Shown here piece after piece: positions 5,063 through 51,425 of a stretch of 64,000 nt of DNA (its first letter is position 1; the number at the start of each line of letters is the position of its first letter). A program made the position numbers and the translations under genes. Location of the stretch: positions 1,002-65,001 of the forward strand of contig DYNY01000003.1 in the NCBI GenBank assembly GCA_020720815.1, written 5' to 3'. Origin of the DNA: Candidatus Elulimicrobium sp. Lineage in GTDB: Bacteria > Patescibacteriota > Minisyncoccia > Phycocordibacterales > UBA918. The notes beneath the pieces are model-generated. The model searched no databases. It was not told the DNA's origin and worked only from the letters and a program-made list of their open reading frames with translations.

Positions 5063-5086
5063 ATACTAATAAGTATATACAAAACA

Positions 5087-5119
5087 AGGAGAATGTAAAG
5101 TTAACTTTACATTCTCCTT
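5087..5119. promoter_or_regulatory. Perfect 33-bp palindrome containing TGTAAAG-N4-CTTTACA, a candidate operator and/or terminator
   Basis: aaggagaatgtaaagttaactttacattctcctt lies between the stop of the DUF2178 gene and the start of msrAB, 25 nt upstream of the msrAB start codon. Confidence 0.5.
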
Positions 5120-17494: not shown

Positions 17495-17917
17495 ATGGCA
17501 AAAAAATTAGTAAAGAAAATCAAAGTTCAAGCCACAGGTGGAAAAGCTACACCAGCTCCACCTTTAGGACCAGTACTAGGACAAGCCGGTATTAATATCG
17601 GTGAGTTCGTTAATCAATTTAACGAACAAACACGTGACCGTATGGGTCAGGTAGTACCGGTAGAACTTTCGGTTTACGATGATCGTACTTTTACTTTCAT
17701 TACCAAAGTATCACCAATGTCTCGTCTTATTCTAAAGGCACTCGGTAAAGACAAGGGTTCAAGTAAGAATGCTGTATCAAAAGTCGGTACCCTTACACAG
17801 GCTCAAGTCAAAGCCATTGCTGAAGAAAAGATGGCTGATCTCAACGCTGCTTCACTCGAAGCTGCGATGAAAACAGTGGCCGGTACTGCGCGCTCAATGG
17901 GCGTAAACGTGGAATAA
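17495..17917 (+). CDS. rplK: 50S ribosomal protein L11
   Basis: …QATGGKATPAPPLGPVLGQAGINIGEFVNQFN…, the canonical L11 N-terminal domain. Confidence 0.95.
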   Translation: MAKKLVKKIKVQATGGKATPAPPLGPVLGQAGINIGEFVNQFNEQTRDRMGQVVPVELSVYDDRTFTFITKVSPMSRLILKALGKDKGSSKNAVSKVGTLTQAQVKAIAEEKMADLNAASLEAAMKTVAGTARSMGVNVE

Positions 17918-18113
17918 ATCCACGTTTACGAAGCTTTTGAGCTCTTTTATGAGCGATAGCGATGTAAAAGAGCCAAAAGGTATACAGTTTCTGTTAAGAA
18001 ATAAACGTGGAATAAATCCACGTTTACGAAGCTTTTGAGCTCTTTTATGAGCGATAGCGATGTAAAAGAGCCAAAAGGTATACAGTTTCTGTTAAGAAAT
18101 AAACGTGGAATAA
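17904..18113. repeat. Tandem direct repeat, 98-bp unit x ~2.1 copies, beginning inside the rplK stop region
   Basis: 17904-18001 is repeated exactly at 18002-18099, with a 14-nt partial third copy. Each unit holds two hairpins (acgtgga…tccacgt and gctctttta…taaaagagc). Confidence 0.9.
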
Positions 18114-18200: not shown

Positions 18201-18722
18201 TTAAGAATTTCGTCTTTTATAATCAACCCATTGAAATTCAAAGTTGCCACTTTGTACTGGTATGTGCTCTTTGGTAGGAACAAAATCATTTTCATATTCT
18301 GGGAAGAAAGAATCAGCTAATGGTTCGCTATCGACAATGGTTAGGTGTAAGCGATCAACATACGGCATGGTTGTTGCGTAAAGTTCGGCTCCACCGCCAA
18401 TGTGTATCTCTTTGGGATTTCCTCTCTCTGCAATAGCAAAGGCAGCCTCTAGTGAACCGGCGGTAATAGCGCCCGGGACTTTGTAGTCAGGGTTACGGGT
18501 GACAATGATATTGGTCCTACCTGGTAGTGGCTTGCCCAGCATAGCGACGATAGATTCAAAGGTCTTTCGCCCCATAATAATAGGATGACCAAGGGTCAGC
18601 TCCTTAAATCGCTTTAAGTCCGCTGGAATATGCCAGAGAAGCTTATTTTTATAACCAATAGCTCGTTTCTTTCGGCTCATCGCCGCCACGATTACGATCG
18701 GTGTGGTTGGAAAGTGCATCAT
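18201..18722 (-). CDS. folA: Dihydrofolate reductase
   Basis: …PIVIVAAMSRKKRAIGYKNKLLWHIPADLKRFKELTLGHPIIMGRKTFES… gives the DHFR fold motifs. The start is chosen at MMHF…, whereas the track ORF starts 6 codons upstream. Confidence 0.85.
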   Translation of the reverse strand: MMHFPTTPIVIVAAMSRKKRAIGYKNKLLWHIPADLKRFKELTLGHPIIMGRKTFESIVAMLGKPLPGRTNIIVTRNPDYKVPGAITAGSLEAAFAIAERGNPKEIHIGGGAELYATTMPYVDRLHLTIVDSEPLADSFFPEYENDFVPTKEHIPVQSGNFEFQWVDYKRRNS

Positions 18723-18793: not shown

Positions 18794-19468
18794 ATGTCAC
18801 ACTTTGAAATTGAGATCAAAAGTCTATTAGGTGAAAAAAAGAACGCAGAAGCTTTAATCGAGGCGATGAAAAGCCACGATGGAGAGTGTGCTCTTTTATC
18901 TAAAAACACCCAGTTAAATCATTACTTCACCGGCGGTTCGATTCATGAGTTATACAAAAAAGTTGAACATCTTTTTACCGGGGTTGAGCATGAAAAAATA
19001 AAAACCATTACCGAGCGAGGAAAGGATTTTTCGATTCGTACCCGACAGAGAGATGACGAAGTCTTGTTGGTTATAAAAGCGGCGATTGATGGTGGCACTA
19101 GTGCTAACGCTGTCTCACGCCTTGAGTTTGAAGAACCGGTGGCAATCACCCTAACGGGACTTGATGATTTACTGATGACGGCTGGATATACTTACGAGGC
19201 CAAATGGTCACGCAGGCGTGAGGAGTATGTTTACAAAGGAGTGGCAGTCTGTATTGATAAAAATGCCGGCTATGGTTACTTGGCTGAATTTGAGACGGTG
19301 ACAGAGGATGAAAGTAGTTTGCCAGCAGTGCGGGAGAAATTAAAAGAATTGATGGATGAGCTTGGAGTGGCCGAATTACCGCAAGAACGTCTAGCGCGCA
19401 TGTTCGCACACTACAATTCCAACTGGAAGGAGTATTATGGTACTGAAAAGACTTTTGTTATTGAATAA
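18794..19468 (+). CDS. CYTH-domain protein (triphosphate tunnel metalloenzyme / class IV adenylate cyclase-like)
   Basis: The N-terminal HFEIEIK strand typical of CYTH. The start is taken at MSHFEIEIK, and the track ORF extends further upstream across the divergent folA start. Confidence 0.5.
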   Translation: MSHFEIEIKSLLGEKKNAEALIEAMKSHDGECALLSKNTQLNHYFTGGSIHELYKKVEHLFTGVEHEKIKTITERGKDFSIRTRQRDDEVLLVIKAAIDGGTSANAVSRLEFEEPVAITLTGLDDLLMTAGYTYEAKWSRRREEYVYKGVAVCIDKNAGYGYLAEFETVTEDESSLPAVREKLKELMDELGVAELPQERLARMFAHYNSNWKEYYGTEKTFVIE

Positions 19469-33736: not shown

Positions 33737-35179
33737 ATGTTAGATAAAAAAGCTCGTTATATTACTACCACCCTACCTTATGTAAACTCCGACCCGCATA
33801 TTGGCTTTGCCTTTGAAATCGTCACAGCTGATGCGCTGGCGCGCTACTGGCGGCTAATGGATTATGAAGTGTTTTTCAATACTGGCACTGATGAACATGG
33901 ACAAAAGATTGCTCAAATGGCAGATAAGGCGGGGCAAGACCGTCAAGCCTATGTTGATCACTATGCTAATGAATTTAAAAAGCTCGGTGAGTCTCTCAAT
34001 CTTTCTTTTGATAATTTCATTCGCACTACGGATGAAAATCATAAGACGGCCGCACAGGAAATCTGGCAACGCTGTGAGGCCAAAGACGATATCTACAAAA
34101 AGAAATACAGTGGTCTATATTGTGTGGGGTGTGAGTCGTTTTATAAAGAGTCTGAACTAGGTACCAATAAGTGTTGTCTGATTCACGGCAAGCCAGCGGA
34201 AGAGATTGAAGAAGAAAATTATTTTTTTAAGCTCTCGAACTACCAAGCTTACTTAGCAGAGTATTTAAATCGGCCAGGTGTAATAGAACCAGAGTGGCGT
34301 CGTCAGGAGGCGATTAATTTCGTGCAGGGTGGCTTGGAAGATTTTAGTATCTCGCGCGAGAAGGCGAGATTAGACTGGGGTATCCCAGTGCCGGGCGATG
34401 ATAATCAAGTGATGTATGTGTGGTTTGATGCCCTAACCAACTACATATCTACCTTAGGCTGGCCGAAAGAGGGTAGTAATTTTGAGAAGTTCTGGATTAA
34501 TGGGGAAGTCATCCAACTGGCGGGTAAAGACCAGGTGCGTTTTCAATCTATCATGTGGCAGGCCATGCTTAAGAGTGCTGACGTAAAAGCGACCGATAAA
34601 CTGGTCTACCATGGCTTTATAAATAGTGGTGGTCAAAAGATGAGCAAGAGTCTCGGTAATGTCATTTCACCTTATGAGCTGATTGCCAAGTATGGTACCG
34701 ACGCCACTCGCTACTTACTTCTACGGCACGTACATCCGTTTGATGACTCAGACATCACTTGGGAGCGTCTCGATGAGTGGTATACCGCCAATCTAGTAAA
34801 TGGTCTAGGAAATCTCGTAGCGCGGGTGATGAAGATGGCCGAGACTCATCTAAGTGAACCTGTTGCGCACCCTGAGGCGGTCGGTTTTGACTCAGCCTAT
34901 AACAATGCCCTCCTGGACAACTTCAACACGCTACAAGCTTGTGATTATATTTGGCAAAAAATTGGTGCTCTAGATGAACGGATAGCTTTGGAACAACCAT
35001 TTAAGGTGGTCAAAGAAGATAAAGCCAGTGCGCAAATGATGATTAAAGAAATGGTCTTAGAACTATATGCTATTGGTCATCTTTTGCATCCAATCATGCC
35101 AGAAACGAATAAAATAATTAAAGAGGCGGTTTTACAAAACAAAAAACCCGCTAATCTTTTCACCCGCCTAGAAAACTAA
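33737..35179 (+). CDS. metG: Methionyl-tRNA synthetase, minimal form
   Basis: …TTTLPYVNSDPHIGFAFE… is the HIGH-like region, and QKMSKSLGN is the KMSKS motif. Confidence 0.85.
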   Translation: MLDKKARYITTTLPYVNSDPHIGFAFEIVTADALARYWRLMDYEVFFNTGTDEHGQKIAQMADKAGQDRQAYVDHYANEFKKLGESLNLSFDNFIRTTDENHKTAAQEIWQRCEAKDDIYKKKYSGLYCVGCESFYKESELGTNKCCLIHGKPAEEIEEENYFFKLSNYQAYLAEYLNRPGVIEPEWRRQEAINFVQGGLEDFSISREKARLDWGIPVPGDDNQVMYVWFDALTNYISTLGWPKEGSNFEKFWINGEVIQLAGKDQVRFQSIMWQAMLKSADVKATDKLVYHGFINSGGQKMSKSLGNVISPYELIAKYGTDATRYLLLRHVHPFDDSDITWERLDEWYTANLVNGLGNLVARVMKMAETHLSEPVAHPEAVGFDSAYNNALLDNFNTLQACDYIWQKIGALDERIALEQPFKVVKEDKASAQMMIKEMVLELYAIGHLLHPIMPETNKIIKEAVLQNKKPANLFTRLEN

Positions 35180-35180
35180 T

Positions 35181-35447
35181 ATGCAAAGTATCGAAGAAAT
35201 CTTAAAGCGAGATAGCCGAGTTGAGCTAGATAAAGCATGGGAAGTCAGTTTTACTAGACGAGCAGTTATTGCTTTCATTACCTACCTCACGGCTACTAGC
35301 TTTTTGTTTTTAATTGATAATAATTTGCCATTTATAAATTCTTTAATACCAACAGGCGGTTATTTACTGTCCACTCTGTCTTTACCTTTTATTAAAAATT
35401 GGTGGTTAAAAAGACAAGTAAATCAAAGTTTACCCGGTGCCGAATAA
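35181..35447 (+). CDS. Hypothetical small membrane protein (88 aa)
   Basis: Two predicted TM helices. It directly follows metG. Confidence 0.35.
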   Translation: MQSIEEILKRDSRVELDKAWEVSFTRRAVIAFITYLTATSFLFLIDNNLPFINSLIPTGGYLLSTLSLPFIKNWWLKRQVNQSLPGAE

Positions 35448-35484
35448 AAGTTTTAGCTAGGTTCTACAATACAGACTGCCTTCT

Positions 35485-35510
35485 AAATAGTACGATCGAT
35501 CGTACTATTT
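35485..35510. repeat. 26-bp perfect palindrome aaatagtacgatcgatcgtactattt, copy 1
   Basis: Read directly from the sequence. It abuts the stop codon of the YerC-like gene. Confidence 0.85.
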
Positions 35511-35513
35511 AGT

Positions 35514-35927
35514 CTAGTGATTTAATTTTTCCAAGGTGCTTTTCCAACGACCACGACCTCGCGGCGGTAGTCCAGCTTGAAGAATAGTCTCTAGTATATT
35601 CAAAATACGAGCGTGCTCGGTTTTATTTTCGGTGATAAATTTTTGAATATTACCGTATTGTCCTATTTGGTAGTTTAGACGTATACGGTCGGCGGTTGAA
35701 GGACTTATTTTTAGGAGTGTCCAGACTCTATATGAGGAATGACCTTCTATGAAAAGAATGATTGCCGCCAAACGCTTTGAGAGCATCAATTTTTCTTCCT
35801 CACCCAAAAGCTCTTCTAGAAACTTTGGGCTTTGAGTTTTGTCCAAGCGAGCGATTATGTCGCTTAGTTGTTTGAAAAGCTCCGTTTGTTTTTCTTCCGT
35901 CATTAGTTGTTTTGAGAGGTGAGCCAT
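35514..35927 (-). CDS. TrpR-like YerC/YecD-family small DNA-binding protein
   Basis: …LMLSKRLAAIILFIEGHSSYRVWTLLKISPSTADRIRLNY… matches the Trp-repressor-like HTH core. The track ORF begins 2 codons upstream with TTG. Confidence 0.55.
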   Translation of the reverse strand: MAHLSKQLMTEEKQTELFKQLSDIIARLDKTQSPKFLEELLGEEEKLMLSKRLAAIILFIEGHSSYRVWTLLKISPSTADRIRLNYQIGQYGNIQKFITENKTEHARILNILETILQAGLPPRGRGRWKSTLEKLNH

Positions 35928-35931
35928 ACCC

Positions 35932-35957
35932 AAATAGTACGATCGATCGTACTATTT
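35932..35957. repeat. 26-bp perfect palindrome aaatagtacgatcgatcgtactattt, copy 2
   Basis: Identical to copy 1. It abuts the start codon of the YerC-like gene. Confidence 0.85.
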
Positions 35958-36100
35958 GGGTATTAGGAGTTGTGGATTGGGTATGTGAGATATGGAACGG
36001 CGGTGAGATTGTGTGCGAATGGATTAGGTATTTTCTGTATAGATTGCAGGAAAGGTGTAAAATTTGGACATCAGACTAGGCGGGCTGGTATAGTATCGTT

Positions 36101-36429: not shown

Positions 36430-37281
36430 ATGAAATACATTGATACTCATTCCCATTTGAACCTGTCAGCTTTTGCTGACGATTTAGCTGAAGTAGTAAA
36501 TCGCTGTGTAGATAAAGGAATGGCGGTCATTAACGTTGGTACCAAAGAAAGTACAAGCGTTCGAGCTGTTAAGTTGGCGCTTTTACATCAGAGTCTGTAT
36601 GCCATCATTGGGCTACACCCGACCCAAACAGTCCCCAGTCGGCCAGATATGGTCGATGATGGAAAGGGTGGTACACCGCTACCTGAAGCGGGGGAGATTT
36701 TCAATCAGGCTTTTTATCGTCAGTTGGCGGGTAGTAGCGACGGCAAGGTGGTCGGGATTGGTGAATGTGGTTTTGATTATTATCATACAAAGCAGGGTAG
36801 CTATGCCGTACAAGAGGCGGCTTTTATTGCGCAAATTGAGTTAGCCAACGAACTCAATTTACCACTGATGATTCATACCCGTGGCCCGAGGCCAGGAGAG
36901 GAAAGTCCAACTGGACGAAGTGTTTATACTGACGTTTATGAGGTGCTCAAGCAATACGCTAAAGTACCTTTTAATGTTCACTTTTACGCTGGCTCTCTAG
37001 CGGAAGCTCGGCGATTTTTCGAGTTAGGTGGAACAATCTCTTTTACCGGCGTGATAACCTTTGCGAAAGCCTATGAAGAAATCGTTAAAGCTGTCCCACT
37101 AGAATTAATTCACGCTGAAACGGATTGTCCTTACGTGGCGCCTGTGCCGTATCGTGGACAGCGCTGCGAGCCTTGGATGGTAGAGGAAGTGTATAAAAAA
37201 ATCGCCAGTATTCGTGGAGAAGATGAGGAAAGTGTTCGATTAGCTTTACTTGAAAACTCTAGAAGGTTTTATAAGATCTAA
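36430..37281 (+). CDS. tatD: TatD-family metal-dependent hydrolase/DNase
   Basis: MKYIDTHSHLNL…, …GECGFDYYH…, and a conserved TatD His/Glu/Asp pattern. Confidence 0.85.
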   Translation: MKYIDTHSHLNLSAFADDLAEVVNRCVDKGMAVINVGTKESTSVRAVKLALLHQSLYAIIGLHPTQTVPSRPDMVDDGKGGTPLPEAGEIFNQAFYRQLAGSSDGKVVGIGECGFDYYHTKQGSYAVQEAAFIAQIELANELNLPLMIHTRGPRPGEESPTGRSVYTDVYEVLKQYAKVPFNVHFYAGSLAEARRFFELGGTISFTGVITFAKAYEEIVKAVPLELIHAETDCPYVAPVPYRGQRCEPWMVEEVYKKIASIRGEDEESVRLALLENSRRFYKI

Positions 37282-50488: not shown

Positions 50489-51425
50489 TGAATATTTGTC
50501 TCTTATTTATAAAGAACATTGAACAACTGGAGAACTGGGACAGAGTATAGGGTTCATAGACATGAAACAGGGATGATTCCTCGGTTGGAGCGAAATTCAA
50601 GAGATACGAAACGCAGGAGATTTCTCGGTTGTAGCGAAGCGGAAAACGAGGAATTTCCTGAGTGAGTGTCTCTCTTGCACACCCTCTTTTTCCGTGTCGT
50701 GATGCAATTATGGTCGTAAGAAGTGACTACCTAGTGCGTCATAAGAGAAAGGAAGATAGTGTTGTTTTTATTGACGTTTGTTCTACTTTCACGTAATGTG
50801 GCAGCAGAAATCTGTCCATATCACCTAGGCTATATGGTTGTTTGGCCCCTTGTGTTACTTAGCTTAGTGCTTAGTTAGTTTCGTATCACATCCTGGACTA
50901 AGCAATCCACATCTAGCTTGGATAAATGCGGTTGGAGTTTGTCAGTCTTCTGCTATACTTCCGAGTGATGCGCTTATGCGCTTTTTTCTAAAGTCGGTCT
51001 GTGTTTTCCTCTGGGAGAGGAAAACCACCCGAAGCTTTACGACAGGAGAAAGCCGTAAGAGTCGTTATGTTCTTTAACAAACATGTTGCTTTGCAACATG
51101 GGTAGCCGGGAAACCAAACTACTTTCATATCTATAACCACCACCCTGTGCGCAACCTAATATTATATTCATATAATATATAATTATGAAGCACGGACTAC
51201 CGCCTCACTTTTTCCTGCCTTGGTTGCCTATGACAGACACGCAGTCCTTCCTTACAGCTAATCTTTACGTCGCGAGATGTAGAGTTAGTGATATTTCGTA
51301 AGGTGGCGTGATAAACCACTTTATGAATATGAATTAATTCATATTATCAGCCGTTATCAAACTAATTAGCTCGCGCAAGTGAGCACACGCATTAATCCTG
51401 CGTAAAAAAACAAATTACTTAATAT

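What the first reader, a model, noticed from the sequence alone, without database searches (positions are those of the whole stretch)
35483..35960. TrpR-like (YerC/YecD) gene exactly bracketed by two identical 26-bp perfect palindromes
aaatagtacgatcgatcgtactattt occurs at 35485-35510, ending 3 nt before the gene's stop codon, and again at 35932-35957, starting 4 nt after its ATG. The motif is centred on GATCGATC, so it contains two GATC sites.

A small DNA-binding protein gene framed this precisely by identical palindromes suggests one of three things: autoregulatory operators, a mobile cassette or MITE-like unit, or paired bidirectional terminators insulating the gene from metG upstream and from the fragmented hydrolase/tatD genes downstream.
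Basis: seen in the sequence. Interest (0 to 1): 0.5.

Follow-up and report, generated by a model that had tools for sequence, protein, structure and literature searches.

The report
Repressor-like gene bracketed by its own palindromes
A small Trp-repressor-like DNA-binding gene in an ultra-small (Paceibacterota) bacterium sits exactly between two copies of a 26-bp perfect palindrome that is probably its own binding site, and the same palindrome is scattered through related genomes, even in frame inside essential genes, like a miniature selfish DNA element.

Summary
AAATAGTACGATCGATCGTACTATTT occurs only at 35485-35510 and 35932-35957, hugging the stop and start codons of a 137-aa minus-strand gene. 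The perfect palindromes are really 30 and 38 bp.

The protein has a TrpR/YerC (HisR) fold plus a conserved C-terminal PPRGRGRWK tail.

The bracket is conserved in about 20 homologous loci (45-100% identity), always between metG and tatD. The 20-bp core lies 7 nt before the ATG in most of them, and the second copy abuts or overlaps the stop codon.

The core is TAGTACG-N6-CGTACTA. Its centre varies symmetrically (TCGA or TTAA), so the two GATC sites are not conserved. Its outer bases co-vary with the protein's recognition helix.

The same palindrome also occurs away from the gene, at about 85 other sites. These include gene 3' ends, sites where its TAG supplies the stop codon, and in-frame copies inside leuS, murD-like, rsmI and apbE genes (peptide NSTINRT). 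These show presence, absence and decay.

Best reading: these are cognate operator-type sites of the encoded repressor, with the 5' site over a leaderless-type promoter, belonging to a REP-like dispersed palindrome family. Binding itself is untested.

The parts
35485..35510 (.). 3' palindrome. The 26-mer AAATAGTACGATCGATCGTACTATTT is perfect over 30 bp (35483-35512), with the 20-bp core at 35488-35507. It lies between the convergent 3' ends of the 88-aa gene and the yerC-like gene.
   Evidence: A copy at the same position is seen in most homologous loci examined.
35514..35927 (-). yerC-like gene of 137 aa. It has a TrpR/HisR-family helix-turn-helix, a conserved N-terminus M(T/A)H(V/L)SK and a conserved C-terminal tail PPRGRGRWK.
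   Evidence: Homologs. PDB profile hits 3kor, 3frw and 3g1c. AF2 model plus Foldseek, where the top 26 hits are all TrpR or TrpR-like. Pfam PF01371 in 20 of 25 family members.
35932..35957 (.). 5' palindrome. The same 26-mer is perfect over 38 bp (35926-35963), with the 20-bp core at 35935-35954. The core ends 7 nt before the ATG.
   Evidence: The 7-nt spacing recurs in nearly all TAG-type (A-type) homologous loci.
35934..35939 (-). A -10-like hexamer TACTAT formed by the gene-proximal arm of the 5' palindrome. It is followed by 6 nt and then the ATG, which fits a candidate leaderless promoter.
   Evidence: Read from the sequence. The same TACTAT + 6 nt + ATG is present in other A-type loci, and TAAGAT + 6-7 nt + ATG in B-type loci. 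The genome almost lacks Shine-Dalgarno motifs, and TATAAT-like boxes peak at 6 nt from the ATG.
33737..35179 (+). metG (methionyl-tRNA synthetase), the conserved neighbour on the 3' side of the cassette.
   Evidence: Synteny.
35181..35447 (+). Conserved 88-aa membrane-protein gene, convergent with the yerC-like gene.
   Evidence: 63% identical to the gene at the same position in L020.
36430..37281 (+). tatD (intact), the conserved divergent neighbour on the 5' side.
   Evidence: Pfam TatD_DNase 1.4e-64, full length. Synteny.

Best explanation
The two 26-mers are cognate, operator-type binding sites of the TrpR/HisR(YerC)-family helix-turn-helix protein encoded between them.

- **Binding (inferred).** A dimer would recognise the 20-bp core T-AGTAC-N8-GTACT-A.
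- **5' site (inferred).** Its gene-proximal arm doubles as a -10-like box (TACTAT) 6 nt before the ATG of what looks like a leaderless mRNA. A bound protein would therefore shut off its own transcription.
- **3' site (weaker inference).** It starts at the stop codon, about 445 bp away. It would act as a second operator, by looping or as a roadblock, and/or as a hairpin that insulates this antisense gene from metG-to-tatD read-through.
- **Wider family (shown).** The sites are not private to this gene. They belong to a lineage-wide family of about 26-bp perfect palindromes that is gained, lost and decays elsewhere in these genomes like a REP or Rickettsia-palindromic-element type of selfish DNA.
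- **Outer arms (inferred).** Where DNA is unconstrained, the arms are extended into 30-60-bp perfect palindromes, probably by hairpin-templated (quasipalindrome) correction.
For: **Protein family**
- A profile of 25 homologs hits S. aureus and Firmicutes TrpR-like structures: 3kor at E=1.5e-6, plus 3frw and 3g1c.
- The AF2 model (pLDDT 84) has only TrpR or TrpR-like chains as its top 26 Foldseek hits.
- 20 of 25 family members hit PF01371.

**Family precedent**
- B. subtilis YerC is HisR. TrpR and HisR operators are 20-bp palindromes with GNACT half-sites and an 8-bp spacer, and about half of hisR genes carry their own site (PMC9413887).

**Linkage**
- The bracket is present in the window, JAIPIB01, L015-L023, L058, L061, L084-L086, L089, L100 and L104-L108, at 45-100% protein identity. 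It is always between metG and tatD and always in the same orientation.
- The core-to-ATG spacing is 7 nt in most loci, and the centre-to-centre distance is 435-471 bp.

**Conservation**
- The core is identical in JAIPIB01, whose protein is only 53% identical.

**Co-variation**
- Outer triplet TAG goes with YRVW..SPSTA(D/E)xI.
- Outer triplets CTT, CCT, ATT or TCA go with YRI(S/A)Q..ST(V/I)(A/E)R.

**Promoter geometry**
- TACTAT or TAAGAT lies 6-7 nt before the ATG.
- Only 2 of 41 long ORFs have SD-like motifs, and TATAAT-like boxes peak 6 nt from the ATG.

**Core as the functional unit**
- Intragenic copies keep only about 20-24 bp. Other copies extend by a mean of 4.8 bp per arm, against 0.34 expected.
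Against: - No binding or expression data exist.
- The window protein itself is below Pfam's TrpR threshold. It is 137 aa, whereas TrpR and HisR are under about 110 aa.
- Most other copies are not in promoter positions. They lie inside coding sequences, at convergent 3' ends, or next to unrelated palindromes. This is not a classical regulon, and no his or trp genes are involved.
- Copies match all 20 positions almost perfectly, which is unusual for operator sets and typical of repeats.
- A relative keeps a solo palindrome between metG and tatD without the gene.
- The co-variation may reflect only one or two evolutionary events and shared ancestry.
- The most distant homolog examined (L024, 37% identity) has no bracket.
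Confidence: 0.55

Rival explanations
1. REPtron-like system. The palindromes are primarily a mobile or selfish repeat family. The YerC-like protein is their dedicated partner, recruiting or directing the machinery that copies, maintains or silences them, much as RAYT transposase genes are flanked by the REPs they act on. Autoregulation would then be secondary.
For: - The family is dispersed, with about 85 unlinked copies.
- Copies sit close to 3' ends, between convergent genes, and can supply a TAG stop codon. These are traits reported for REPs (PMC3733652).
- In-frame copies occur in leuS, a Mur ligase gene, rsmI and apbE.
- Presence, absence and decay are seen among 120 RsmI homologs and in the L078 murD homolog.
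- Different palindrome families cluster side by side.
- The gene is single-copy and syntenic, like RAYTs.
Against: - The protein is an all-helical TrpR fold with no HUH/Tyr, DDE or Ser-recombinase catalytic domain.
- No transposase or IS-end half-sites were found in 682 kb of loci.
- Copy number is low, at 2 to at least 8 per genome.
- There is no GTAG or CGTC tag.
- There are no target-site duplications.
Confidence: 0.2
2. Structural hairpins only. The palindromes are generic bidirectional terminators or mRNA-stabilising hairpins, or DNA cruciforms, of this lineage. They insulate an antisense gene embedded in the metG-tatD unit, and the protein does not recognise them.
For: - The 3' copy lies between convergent genes.
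- Predicted RNA hairpins have energies of -16 to -26 kcal/mol.
- Many unlinked copies sit 0-100 nt after stop codons.
- Outer arms co-vary to keep pairing, for example GGTATGA/TCATACC against GGAATG/CATTCC.
- These genomes hold many other long perfect palindromes: about 36 unrelated ones in 725 kb, against 0.7 expected.
- A solo copy lies between metG and tatD.
Against: - The 20-bp core sequence is conserved across species whose proteins are about 50% identical. A mere stem would drift.
- Copies inside essential genes cannot be terminators.
- There is no T-run in the higher-GC genomes.
- The terminator scan did not call the window copies, and the window has ordinary GC-rich hairpin-plus-T terminators elsewhere.
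- The 5' copy sits at the promoter and start codon with fixed spacing.
- The arms are perfect DNA symmetry with no G-T wobble pairs.
Confidence: 0.15
3. Chromosome-organising sites, like parS, matS or Noc-binding sites. The protein is a site-specific nucleoid or centromere-like factor. Its few sites per genome, including intragenic ones, mark a chromosomal domain, and the gene carries its own sites.
For: - There are few copies per genome, and some are intragenic, as with parS.
- On the 962,580-bp contig Ga0156292_11, all 5 exact sites lie within 141 kb (470.6-611.7 kb). The chance of this is p of about 0.01 for 4 independent loci.
Against: - Sites in JALHRC01 are spread over 7 contigs.
- The rsmI site is absent or decayed in most relatives.
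- The protein is not ParB-like.
- No origin or terminus signal is seen in the window.
Confidence: 0.06
4. Excisable or invertible gene cassette. The two identical palindromes are recombination sites that delete, invert or insert the gene.
For: - Identical repeats flank the gene.
- A relative has exactly one palindrome and no gene at the same metG-tatD junction (L040, L063 and L035).
Against: - Orientation and position are identical in about 20 loci, with no inverted form.
- No recombinase gene is nearby.
- There were no hits in viral contigs.
- The solo site is adequately explained by a one-off homologous deletion.
Confidence: 0.04

Closest known systems
TrpR/HisR (YerC) repressors and their autoregulated 20-bp palindromic operators (PMC9413887)
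   Same: - Same fold and Pfam family at the family level.
- The site is a 20-bp palindrome with GTAC-containing half-sites separated by 8 bp.
- A site lies immediately upstream of the regulator's own gene.
   Different: - The protein is about 30-40 aa longer, with a conserved PPRGRGRWK tail.
- A second identical site lies at the stop codon.
- Sites are perfect and extend into 30-60-bp palindromes.
- Other copies lie in coding sequences and at 3' ends rather than in promoters of amino-acid genes.
- The half-site is AGTAC...GTACT, the reverse order of TrpR's GTACT...AGTAC.
REP elements and REPtrons (RAYT genes flanked by REPs; PMC3733652)
   Same: - Short palindromic repeats sit near 3' ends and between convergent genes.
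- They sometimes supply TAG stop codons, and some are intragenic.
- Different families cluster together.
- A single-copy, syntenic gene is flanked by two copies.
   Different: - The flanked gene encodes a TrpR-like HTH, not an HUH tyrosine transposase.
- The palindromes are perfect and have no GTAG or CGTC tag.
- There are only a few copies per genome.
Rickettsia palindromic elements (selfish DNA inserted in frame in protein-coding genes; from my own knowledge, Ogata et al. 2000)
   Same: - A palindromic repeat is tolerated in frame in loops of essential proteins (leuS, Mur ligase, rsmI, apbE).
- It shows presence/absence and decay among orthologs.
   Different: - It is only 20-26 bp (7-8 codons, NST(I/V)(N/D)RT) rather than about 100-150 bp.
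- It is associated with a specific DNA-binding gene.
Intrinsic bidirectional terminators
   Same: It is a hairpin-forming palindrome between convergent genes, with A-run and T-run flanks in the window copy.
   Different: - The stem sequence is conserved across species.
- There is no real T-tract.
- Copies occur at a promoter and inside genes.

Membership tests
TrpR/YerC(HisR) family repressor | TrpR-type all-helical fold and a PF01371 match | tested here: met
   - The profile hits 3kor at E=1.5e-6, plus 3frw and 3g1c.
- The Foldseek top 26 hits are all TrpR or TrpR-like, with target-normalised TM about 0.7.
- 20 of 25 family members hit PF01371.
- The window protein alone falls below the threshold.
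TrpR/YerC(HisR) family repressor | 20-bp palindromic operator upstream of the regulator's own gene (autoregulation) | tested here: met
   The 20-bp core lies 7 nt before the ATG in the window and in most homologous loci. Only the position is shown. The regulatory effect is not testable here.
TrpR/YerC(HisR) family repressor | Regulon sites in promoters of amino-acid (trp/his) biosynthesis or transport genes | tested here: not met
   Other copies lie inside leuS, a Mur ligase gene, rsmI and apbE, at 3' ends, or upstream of ileS, dnaK and ruvA. No his or trp genes were seen.
TrpR/YerC(HisR) family repressor | Specific DNA binding stimulated by an amino-acid co-repressor | not testable with these tools
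   This needs EMSA or footprinting with purified protein.
REP / REPtron | Short palindromic repeats dispersed mainly outside genes near 3' ends, with occasional intragenic copies and TAG stop donation | tested here: met
   Copy number is low, however: 5 on a 963-kb contig and at least 8 in JALHRC01.
REP / REPtron | GTAG or CGTC tag at one end and an imperfect stem-loop | tested here: not met
   The palindromes are perfect, symmetric and loopless, with no tag.
REP / REPtron | The flanked gene encodes a RAYT (HUH/Tyr) transposase | tested here: not met
   The protein has a TrpR-like HTH fold and no HUH motif.
Rickettsia-palindromic-element-like intragenic selfish DNA | In-frame palindromic insert in conserved proteins, variably present among orthologs | tested here: met
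   - The peptide NST(I/V)(N/D)RT occurs in 4 protein families.
- Among 120 RsmI homologs, about 9 are intact, about 12 decayed and about 70 have no insert.
- The murD homolog of L078 lacks it.
Rickettsia-palindromic-element-like intragenic selfish DNA | Element length about 100-150 bp | tested here: not met
   The element is 20-26 bp.
Intrinsic terminator | GC-rich stem-loop followed by a T-tract | tested here: not met
   The scan did not call either copy. The stem is AT-rich and the T-run is only 3 nt. There is no T-run in the higher-GC relatives.
MITE / IS-derived element | Terminal inverted repeats with target-site duplication and a parent IS with matching ends | tested here: not met
   No isolated half-sites or IS ends were found in 682 kb. 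Flanks are inverted rather than direct repeats.
Invertible or excisable cassette | Both orientations or empty and occupied sites in populations, plus a recombinase | tested here: inconclusive
   One solo site exists, but orientation is constant in about 20 loci and there is no recombinase nearby.

The most novel reading that the evidence does not exclude
A large, uncharacterised family of about 135-aa TrpR-like proteins in Patescibacteria are the dedicated partners of miniature mobile palindromes. There are about 1,068 clusters of these proteins at 50% identity with E<=1e-10. This would be a transposase-free 'REPtron' in which an HTH protein and its 20-26-bp palindrome co-evolve. The palindrome would spread to new sites, including in frame into essential genes, and grow into long perfect palindromes. 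The protein would control or promote this process through an unknown, possibly replication-template-switch or host-nuclease-dependent, mechanism.
Probability: 0.2. Interest if true: 0.85.

Novelty: new variant of a known kind. Interest (0 to 1): 0.62.

Why it matters
- **A regulator-site pair for the Candidate Phyla Radiation.** If the protein binds these sites, this gives a defined regulator-operator pair and promoter architecture (a leaderless start with the -10 box inside the operator). Almost nothing is known experimentally about gene regulation in this group.
- **A new kind of repeat-protein association.** The wider pattern is a repressor-type gene invariably bracketed by a palindrome that also behaves as selfish DNA inside essential genes. 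That resembles REP/RAYT systems but has no transposase. It would point to a new way for short palindromes to spread or be maintained.
- **Palindrome stability.** It would also show how perfect palindromes of 30-60 bp are tolerated and generated in minimal genomes.
- **Practical use.** The NST(I/V)(N/D)RT insert is a convenient marker for tracing these events.

Tried and rejected
- **GATC/Dam or PvuI-type methylation or restriction site.** Rejected, because the centre changes to ATTAAT, GTTAAC or TGTTAACA in relatives while the bracket persists.
- **Chance repeat.** Rejected.
- **Assembly artefact.** Rejected for the family, since interior copies are seen in NCBI, JGI, ENA and Logan assemblies. 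It probably does explain the 108-bp palindrome that reaches the contig edge in L076.
- **Known RNA family.** Only sub-threshold noise was found.
- **Phage or defence protein.** There was no PHROGs hit and no match in viral contigs.
- **IS with half-palindrome ends.** No isolated half-sites were found.
- **Integron attC cassette.** There is no integrase, the palindromes are perfect and synteny is fixed.
- **Inversion switch.** Orientation is constant.
- **Classical regulon.** Neighbouring genes have no common function.
- **Caps reached.** The genome-collection scan could not be repeated, so I could not test whether JALHRC01 (8 unlinked sites) encodes a YerC-like gene.
- **IPVNWN peptide.** I infer that this peptide in RsmI is encoded by another palindrome. 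The inference rests on the peptide and on one DNA example at a different locus (L056:2188).

Full report
**1.
The 26-mer AAATAGTACGATCGATCGTACTATTT is at 35485-35510 and 35932-35957 and nowhere else in the window. That remains true allowing 3 mismatches for the 26-mer or 5 for the 20-bp core, and none are expected by chance. The gene between the copies runs on the minus strand from ATG 35927-35925 to TAG 35516-35514 and encodes 137 aa. The perfect palindromes are in fact 30 bp (35483-35512) and 38 bp (35926-35963), and the longer one reaches into the start codon.

The neighbours are as follows:
- metG at 33737-35179.
- A conserved 88-aa gene at 35181-35447, convergent with the yerC-like gene.
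- A 94-aa ORF with no family match.
- An intact tatD at 36430-37281.

**2. The protein belongs to the TrpR/YerC family.**
On its own the window protein gives only a weak HTH_23 hit, but the family-level evidence is clear:
- A profile of 25 homologs hits the S. aureus 'possible Trp repressor' 3kor (E=1.5e-6), plus 3frw and 3g1c.
- An AlphaFold2 model (pLDDT 84) has only TrpR or TrpR-like chains among its 26 best Foldseek hits.
- 20 of 25 family members match PF01371.

It differs from TrpR and HisR in being about 30-40 aa longer. It has a nearly invariant C-terminal PPRGRGRWK tail and a conserved N-terminus M(T/P)(H/N)(V/I)SK. The family is large, with about 1,068 clusters at 50% identity at E<=1e-10. 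According to PMC9413887:
- B. subtilis YerC is the histidine repressor HisR.
- TrpR and HisR operators are 20-bp palindromes with GNACT half-sites and an 8-bp spacer.
- About half of hisR genes are preceded by their own site.

**3. The bracket is conserved, and the palindrome co-varies with the protein.**
I examined about 20 homologous loci from independent assemblies. Nearly all sit between metG and tatD, and all have the gene in the same orientation. Nearly all have a palindrome on both sides of the gene.

Geometry of the bracket:
- The core ends 7 nt before the ATG in most loci, and 11 nt before it in one subgroup.
- The 3' copy abuts the stop codon. In several loci the palindrome's own TAG is the stop codon.
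- The centre-to-centre distance is 435-471 bp.

Sequence of the core:
- The core is TAGTACG-N6-CGTACTA.
- The centre differs symmetrically between genomes (ATCGAT, ATTAAT, GTTAAC, and TGTTAACA in L105), so the GATC pair is incidental.
- JAIPIB01, whose protein is only 53% identical, has the identical 20-bp core on both sides.

In more distant subfamilies the outer triplet changes together with the helix-turn-helix:

| Outer triplet of the half-site | Helix-turn-helix sequence |
|---|---|
| TAG | YRVW(T/Q)..SPSTA(D/E)xI |
| CTT, CCT, ATT or TCA (L106, L022, L107, L108) | YRI(S/A)Q..ST(V/I)(A/E)R |

The invariant part across all types except L105 (TACT) and L022 (TTCG) is TACG-N6-CGTA. The most distant homolog examined (L024, 37% identity) has no bracket.

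**4. The 5' site looks like a promoter-operator.**
The gene-proximal arm always provides a TAnnAT hexamer. This is TACTAT in A-type loci and TAAGAT in B-type loci, and it lies 6-7 nt before the ATG. In this genome only 2 of 41 long ORFs have a Shine-Dalgarno-like motif. TATAAT-like hexamers show a modest peak exactly 6 nt from the ATG, at 4 of 52 ORFs. This fits leaderless transcription starting at the ATG, with the operator over the -10 box, which would give negative autoregulation. That step is an inference.

**5. The palindrome is not private to this gene.**
- *Genome collection scan.* An exact scan for the 20-mer found 14 places. Eight of them are on seven contigs of one Paceibacterota MAG (JALHRC01), with no yerC within 8 kb.
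- *Metagenome scan.* A scan with the degenerate core found 79 loci. Nearly all hits were the three symmetric variants and only 6 were asymmetric, so chance hits are negligible. A YerC HMM finds the gene next to only a minority of them, leaving about 85 unlinked site instances.
- *A near-complete genome.* A 962,580-bp contig carries five exact sites. Two bracket yerC and three lie elsewhere, and all five fall within 141 kb.

The unlinked copies occupy several kinds of position:
- Just after stop codons and between convergent genes.
- At gene ends, where the palindrome's TAG supplies the stop codon.
- Upstream of ileS, dnaK and ruvA.
- In frame inside leuS, a Mur ligase gene, rsmI and apbE. These intragenic copies always encode (E/D)NST(I/V)(N/D)RT.

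I took an unbiased census of 120 RsmI homologs at this loop. About 9 have the intact peptide. About 12 have decayed versions such as ENSSIDHT and ENSTVNCT. About 20 have a different peptide, IPVNWN, which is the translation of another perfect palindrome. About 70 have no insert. One murD homolog lacks the insert. One relative has metG, a single palindrome, then tatD, with no yerC.

In JALHRC01 the A-type palindrome sits within 5-100 bp of a second family, CCCTTCGGTTAACCGAAGGG. That second family is the type that brackets yerC in L022. All of this is the behaviour described for REPs (PMC3733652) and for palindromic elements inside Rickettsia genes. However, there is no transposase, no tag and no IS-end half-sites, and there are only a few copies per genome.

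**6. The outer arms.**
Beyond that, the arms are site-specific yet perfectly complementary:
- They extend by a mean of 4.8 bp per arm, against 0.34 expected.
- 44% extend by at least 5 bp, against 0.1% expected.
- The longest interior palindromes reach 60 bp.
- Intragenic copies stay at about 20-24 bp.

At the yerC ends the coding side is mirrored on the non-coding side. Differences between relatives are compensated on both arms, for example GGTATGA/TCATACC against GGAATG/CATTCC. These genomes also hold many unrelated long perfect palindromes. I infer a general palindrome-perfecting process, hairpin-templated correction, acting wherever sequence is unconstrained. Selection for RNA hairpins cannot be excluded. 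The predicted RNA hairpins have energies of -16 to -26 kcal/mol.

**7. Verdict.**
The best-supported reading has a confidence of about 0.55. The palindromes are cognate TrpR-family operator-type sites of the encoded protein. The 5' site would mediate autorepression at a leaderless promoter. The 3' site would act as an auxiliary operator and/or an insulating hairpin. Both belong to a REP-like dispersed family.

The rivals, with confidences, are:
- A REPtron-like partnership in which the protein serves the repeats (0.2).
- Purely structural hairpins (0.15).
- Chromosome-organising sites (0.06).
- An excisable or invertible cassette (0.04).

Nothing here has been shown biochemically. Binding assays and transcript end mapping are the decisive tests.

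Noticed in passing
window 17904-18099: An exact tandem duplication of a 98-nt unit (two copies, 100% identical). It lies just after the ORF at 17495-17917. Each unit starts with a hairpin, TAAACGTGGAATAAATCCACGTTTA.
   Followed up: no
window 5086-5119 and 51326-51345: Two other long perfect palindromes unrelated to the yerC one. The first is 34 bp (AAGGAGAATGTAAAGTTAACTTTACATTCTCCTT), 24 nt upstream of the start of the 537-aa minus-strand gene. The second is 20 bp (AATATGAATTAATTCATATT).
   Followed up: no
window, whole: Shine-Dalgarno-like motifs precede only 2 of 41 long ORFs. Several genes have a TATAAT-like box exactly 6 nt before the ATG, for example at 18794, 53601, 55050, and on the minus strand at 18722 and 7767. 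This suggests widespread leaderless mRNAs.
   Followed up: partly
L062:7023, L029:1759, L044:5345 (leuS); L006:542, L025, L046, L069 (Mur ligase); L006:5757, L039, L078, L080 (rsmI); L055, L060, L099 (apbE): The same 20-bp palindrome sits in frame inside four housekeeping genes and encodes (E/D)NST(I/V)(N/D)RT. It is at orthologous positions but carries different centre variants. Contig L006 carries two variants.
   Followed up: yes
L004:6507, L008:7664, L009:4519-4617, L012:7349 (JALHRC01): Intergenic regions at gene 3' ends carry two or three different perfect palindromes side by side. These are A-type, CCCTTCGGTTAACCGAAGGG-type and GC-rich 36-bp palindromes, and the arrangement is reminiscent of REP clusters.
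   Followed up: partly
Contig Ga0156292_11 (L090, L042, L027, L049, L091): All five exact sites of this 962,580-bp contig lie between about 470.6 and 611.7 kb, which is 15% of the contig (p of about 0.01).
   Followed up: partly
L040:1893, L063:425, L035:224: A 'solo' palindrome lies between metG (7 nt after its stop) and tatD (40 nt before its ATG), with no yerC-like gene. The same sequence appears in three metagenomes.
   Followed up: yes
L010, L011 (JBLHQB01, labelled Patiriisocius sp.): Two contigs of a MAG labelled as a flavobacterium carry the Paceibacterota-type palindrome. They may be mis-binned.
   Followed up: no
L062:4918-7809 and L001:4381-7923 (also L020, L022): The LeuRS carries a NUDIX domain insert (aa 406-530). 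The IleRS carries a histidine-phosphatase (His_Phos_1) domain insert. These are unusual fused aminoacyl-tRNA synthetases in these genomes.
   Followed up: no
L076:1-108: A 108-bp perfect palindrome around the core reaches the contig edge exactly. It is probably a fold-back assembly or amplification artefact.
   Followed up: no
P0074, P0104, P0153 and other RsmI homologs; L056:2188-2213: About 20 of 120 RsmI homologs carry the peptide IPVNWN in the same loop. This is the translation of the perfect palindrome ATTCCAGTTAACTGGAAT. That palindrome is seen as DNA in L056, 13 nt from an A-like site.
   Followed up: partly
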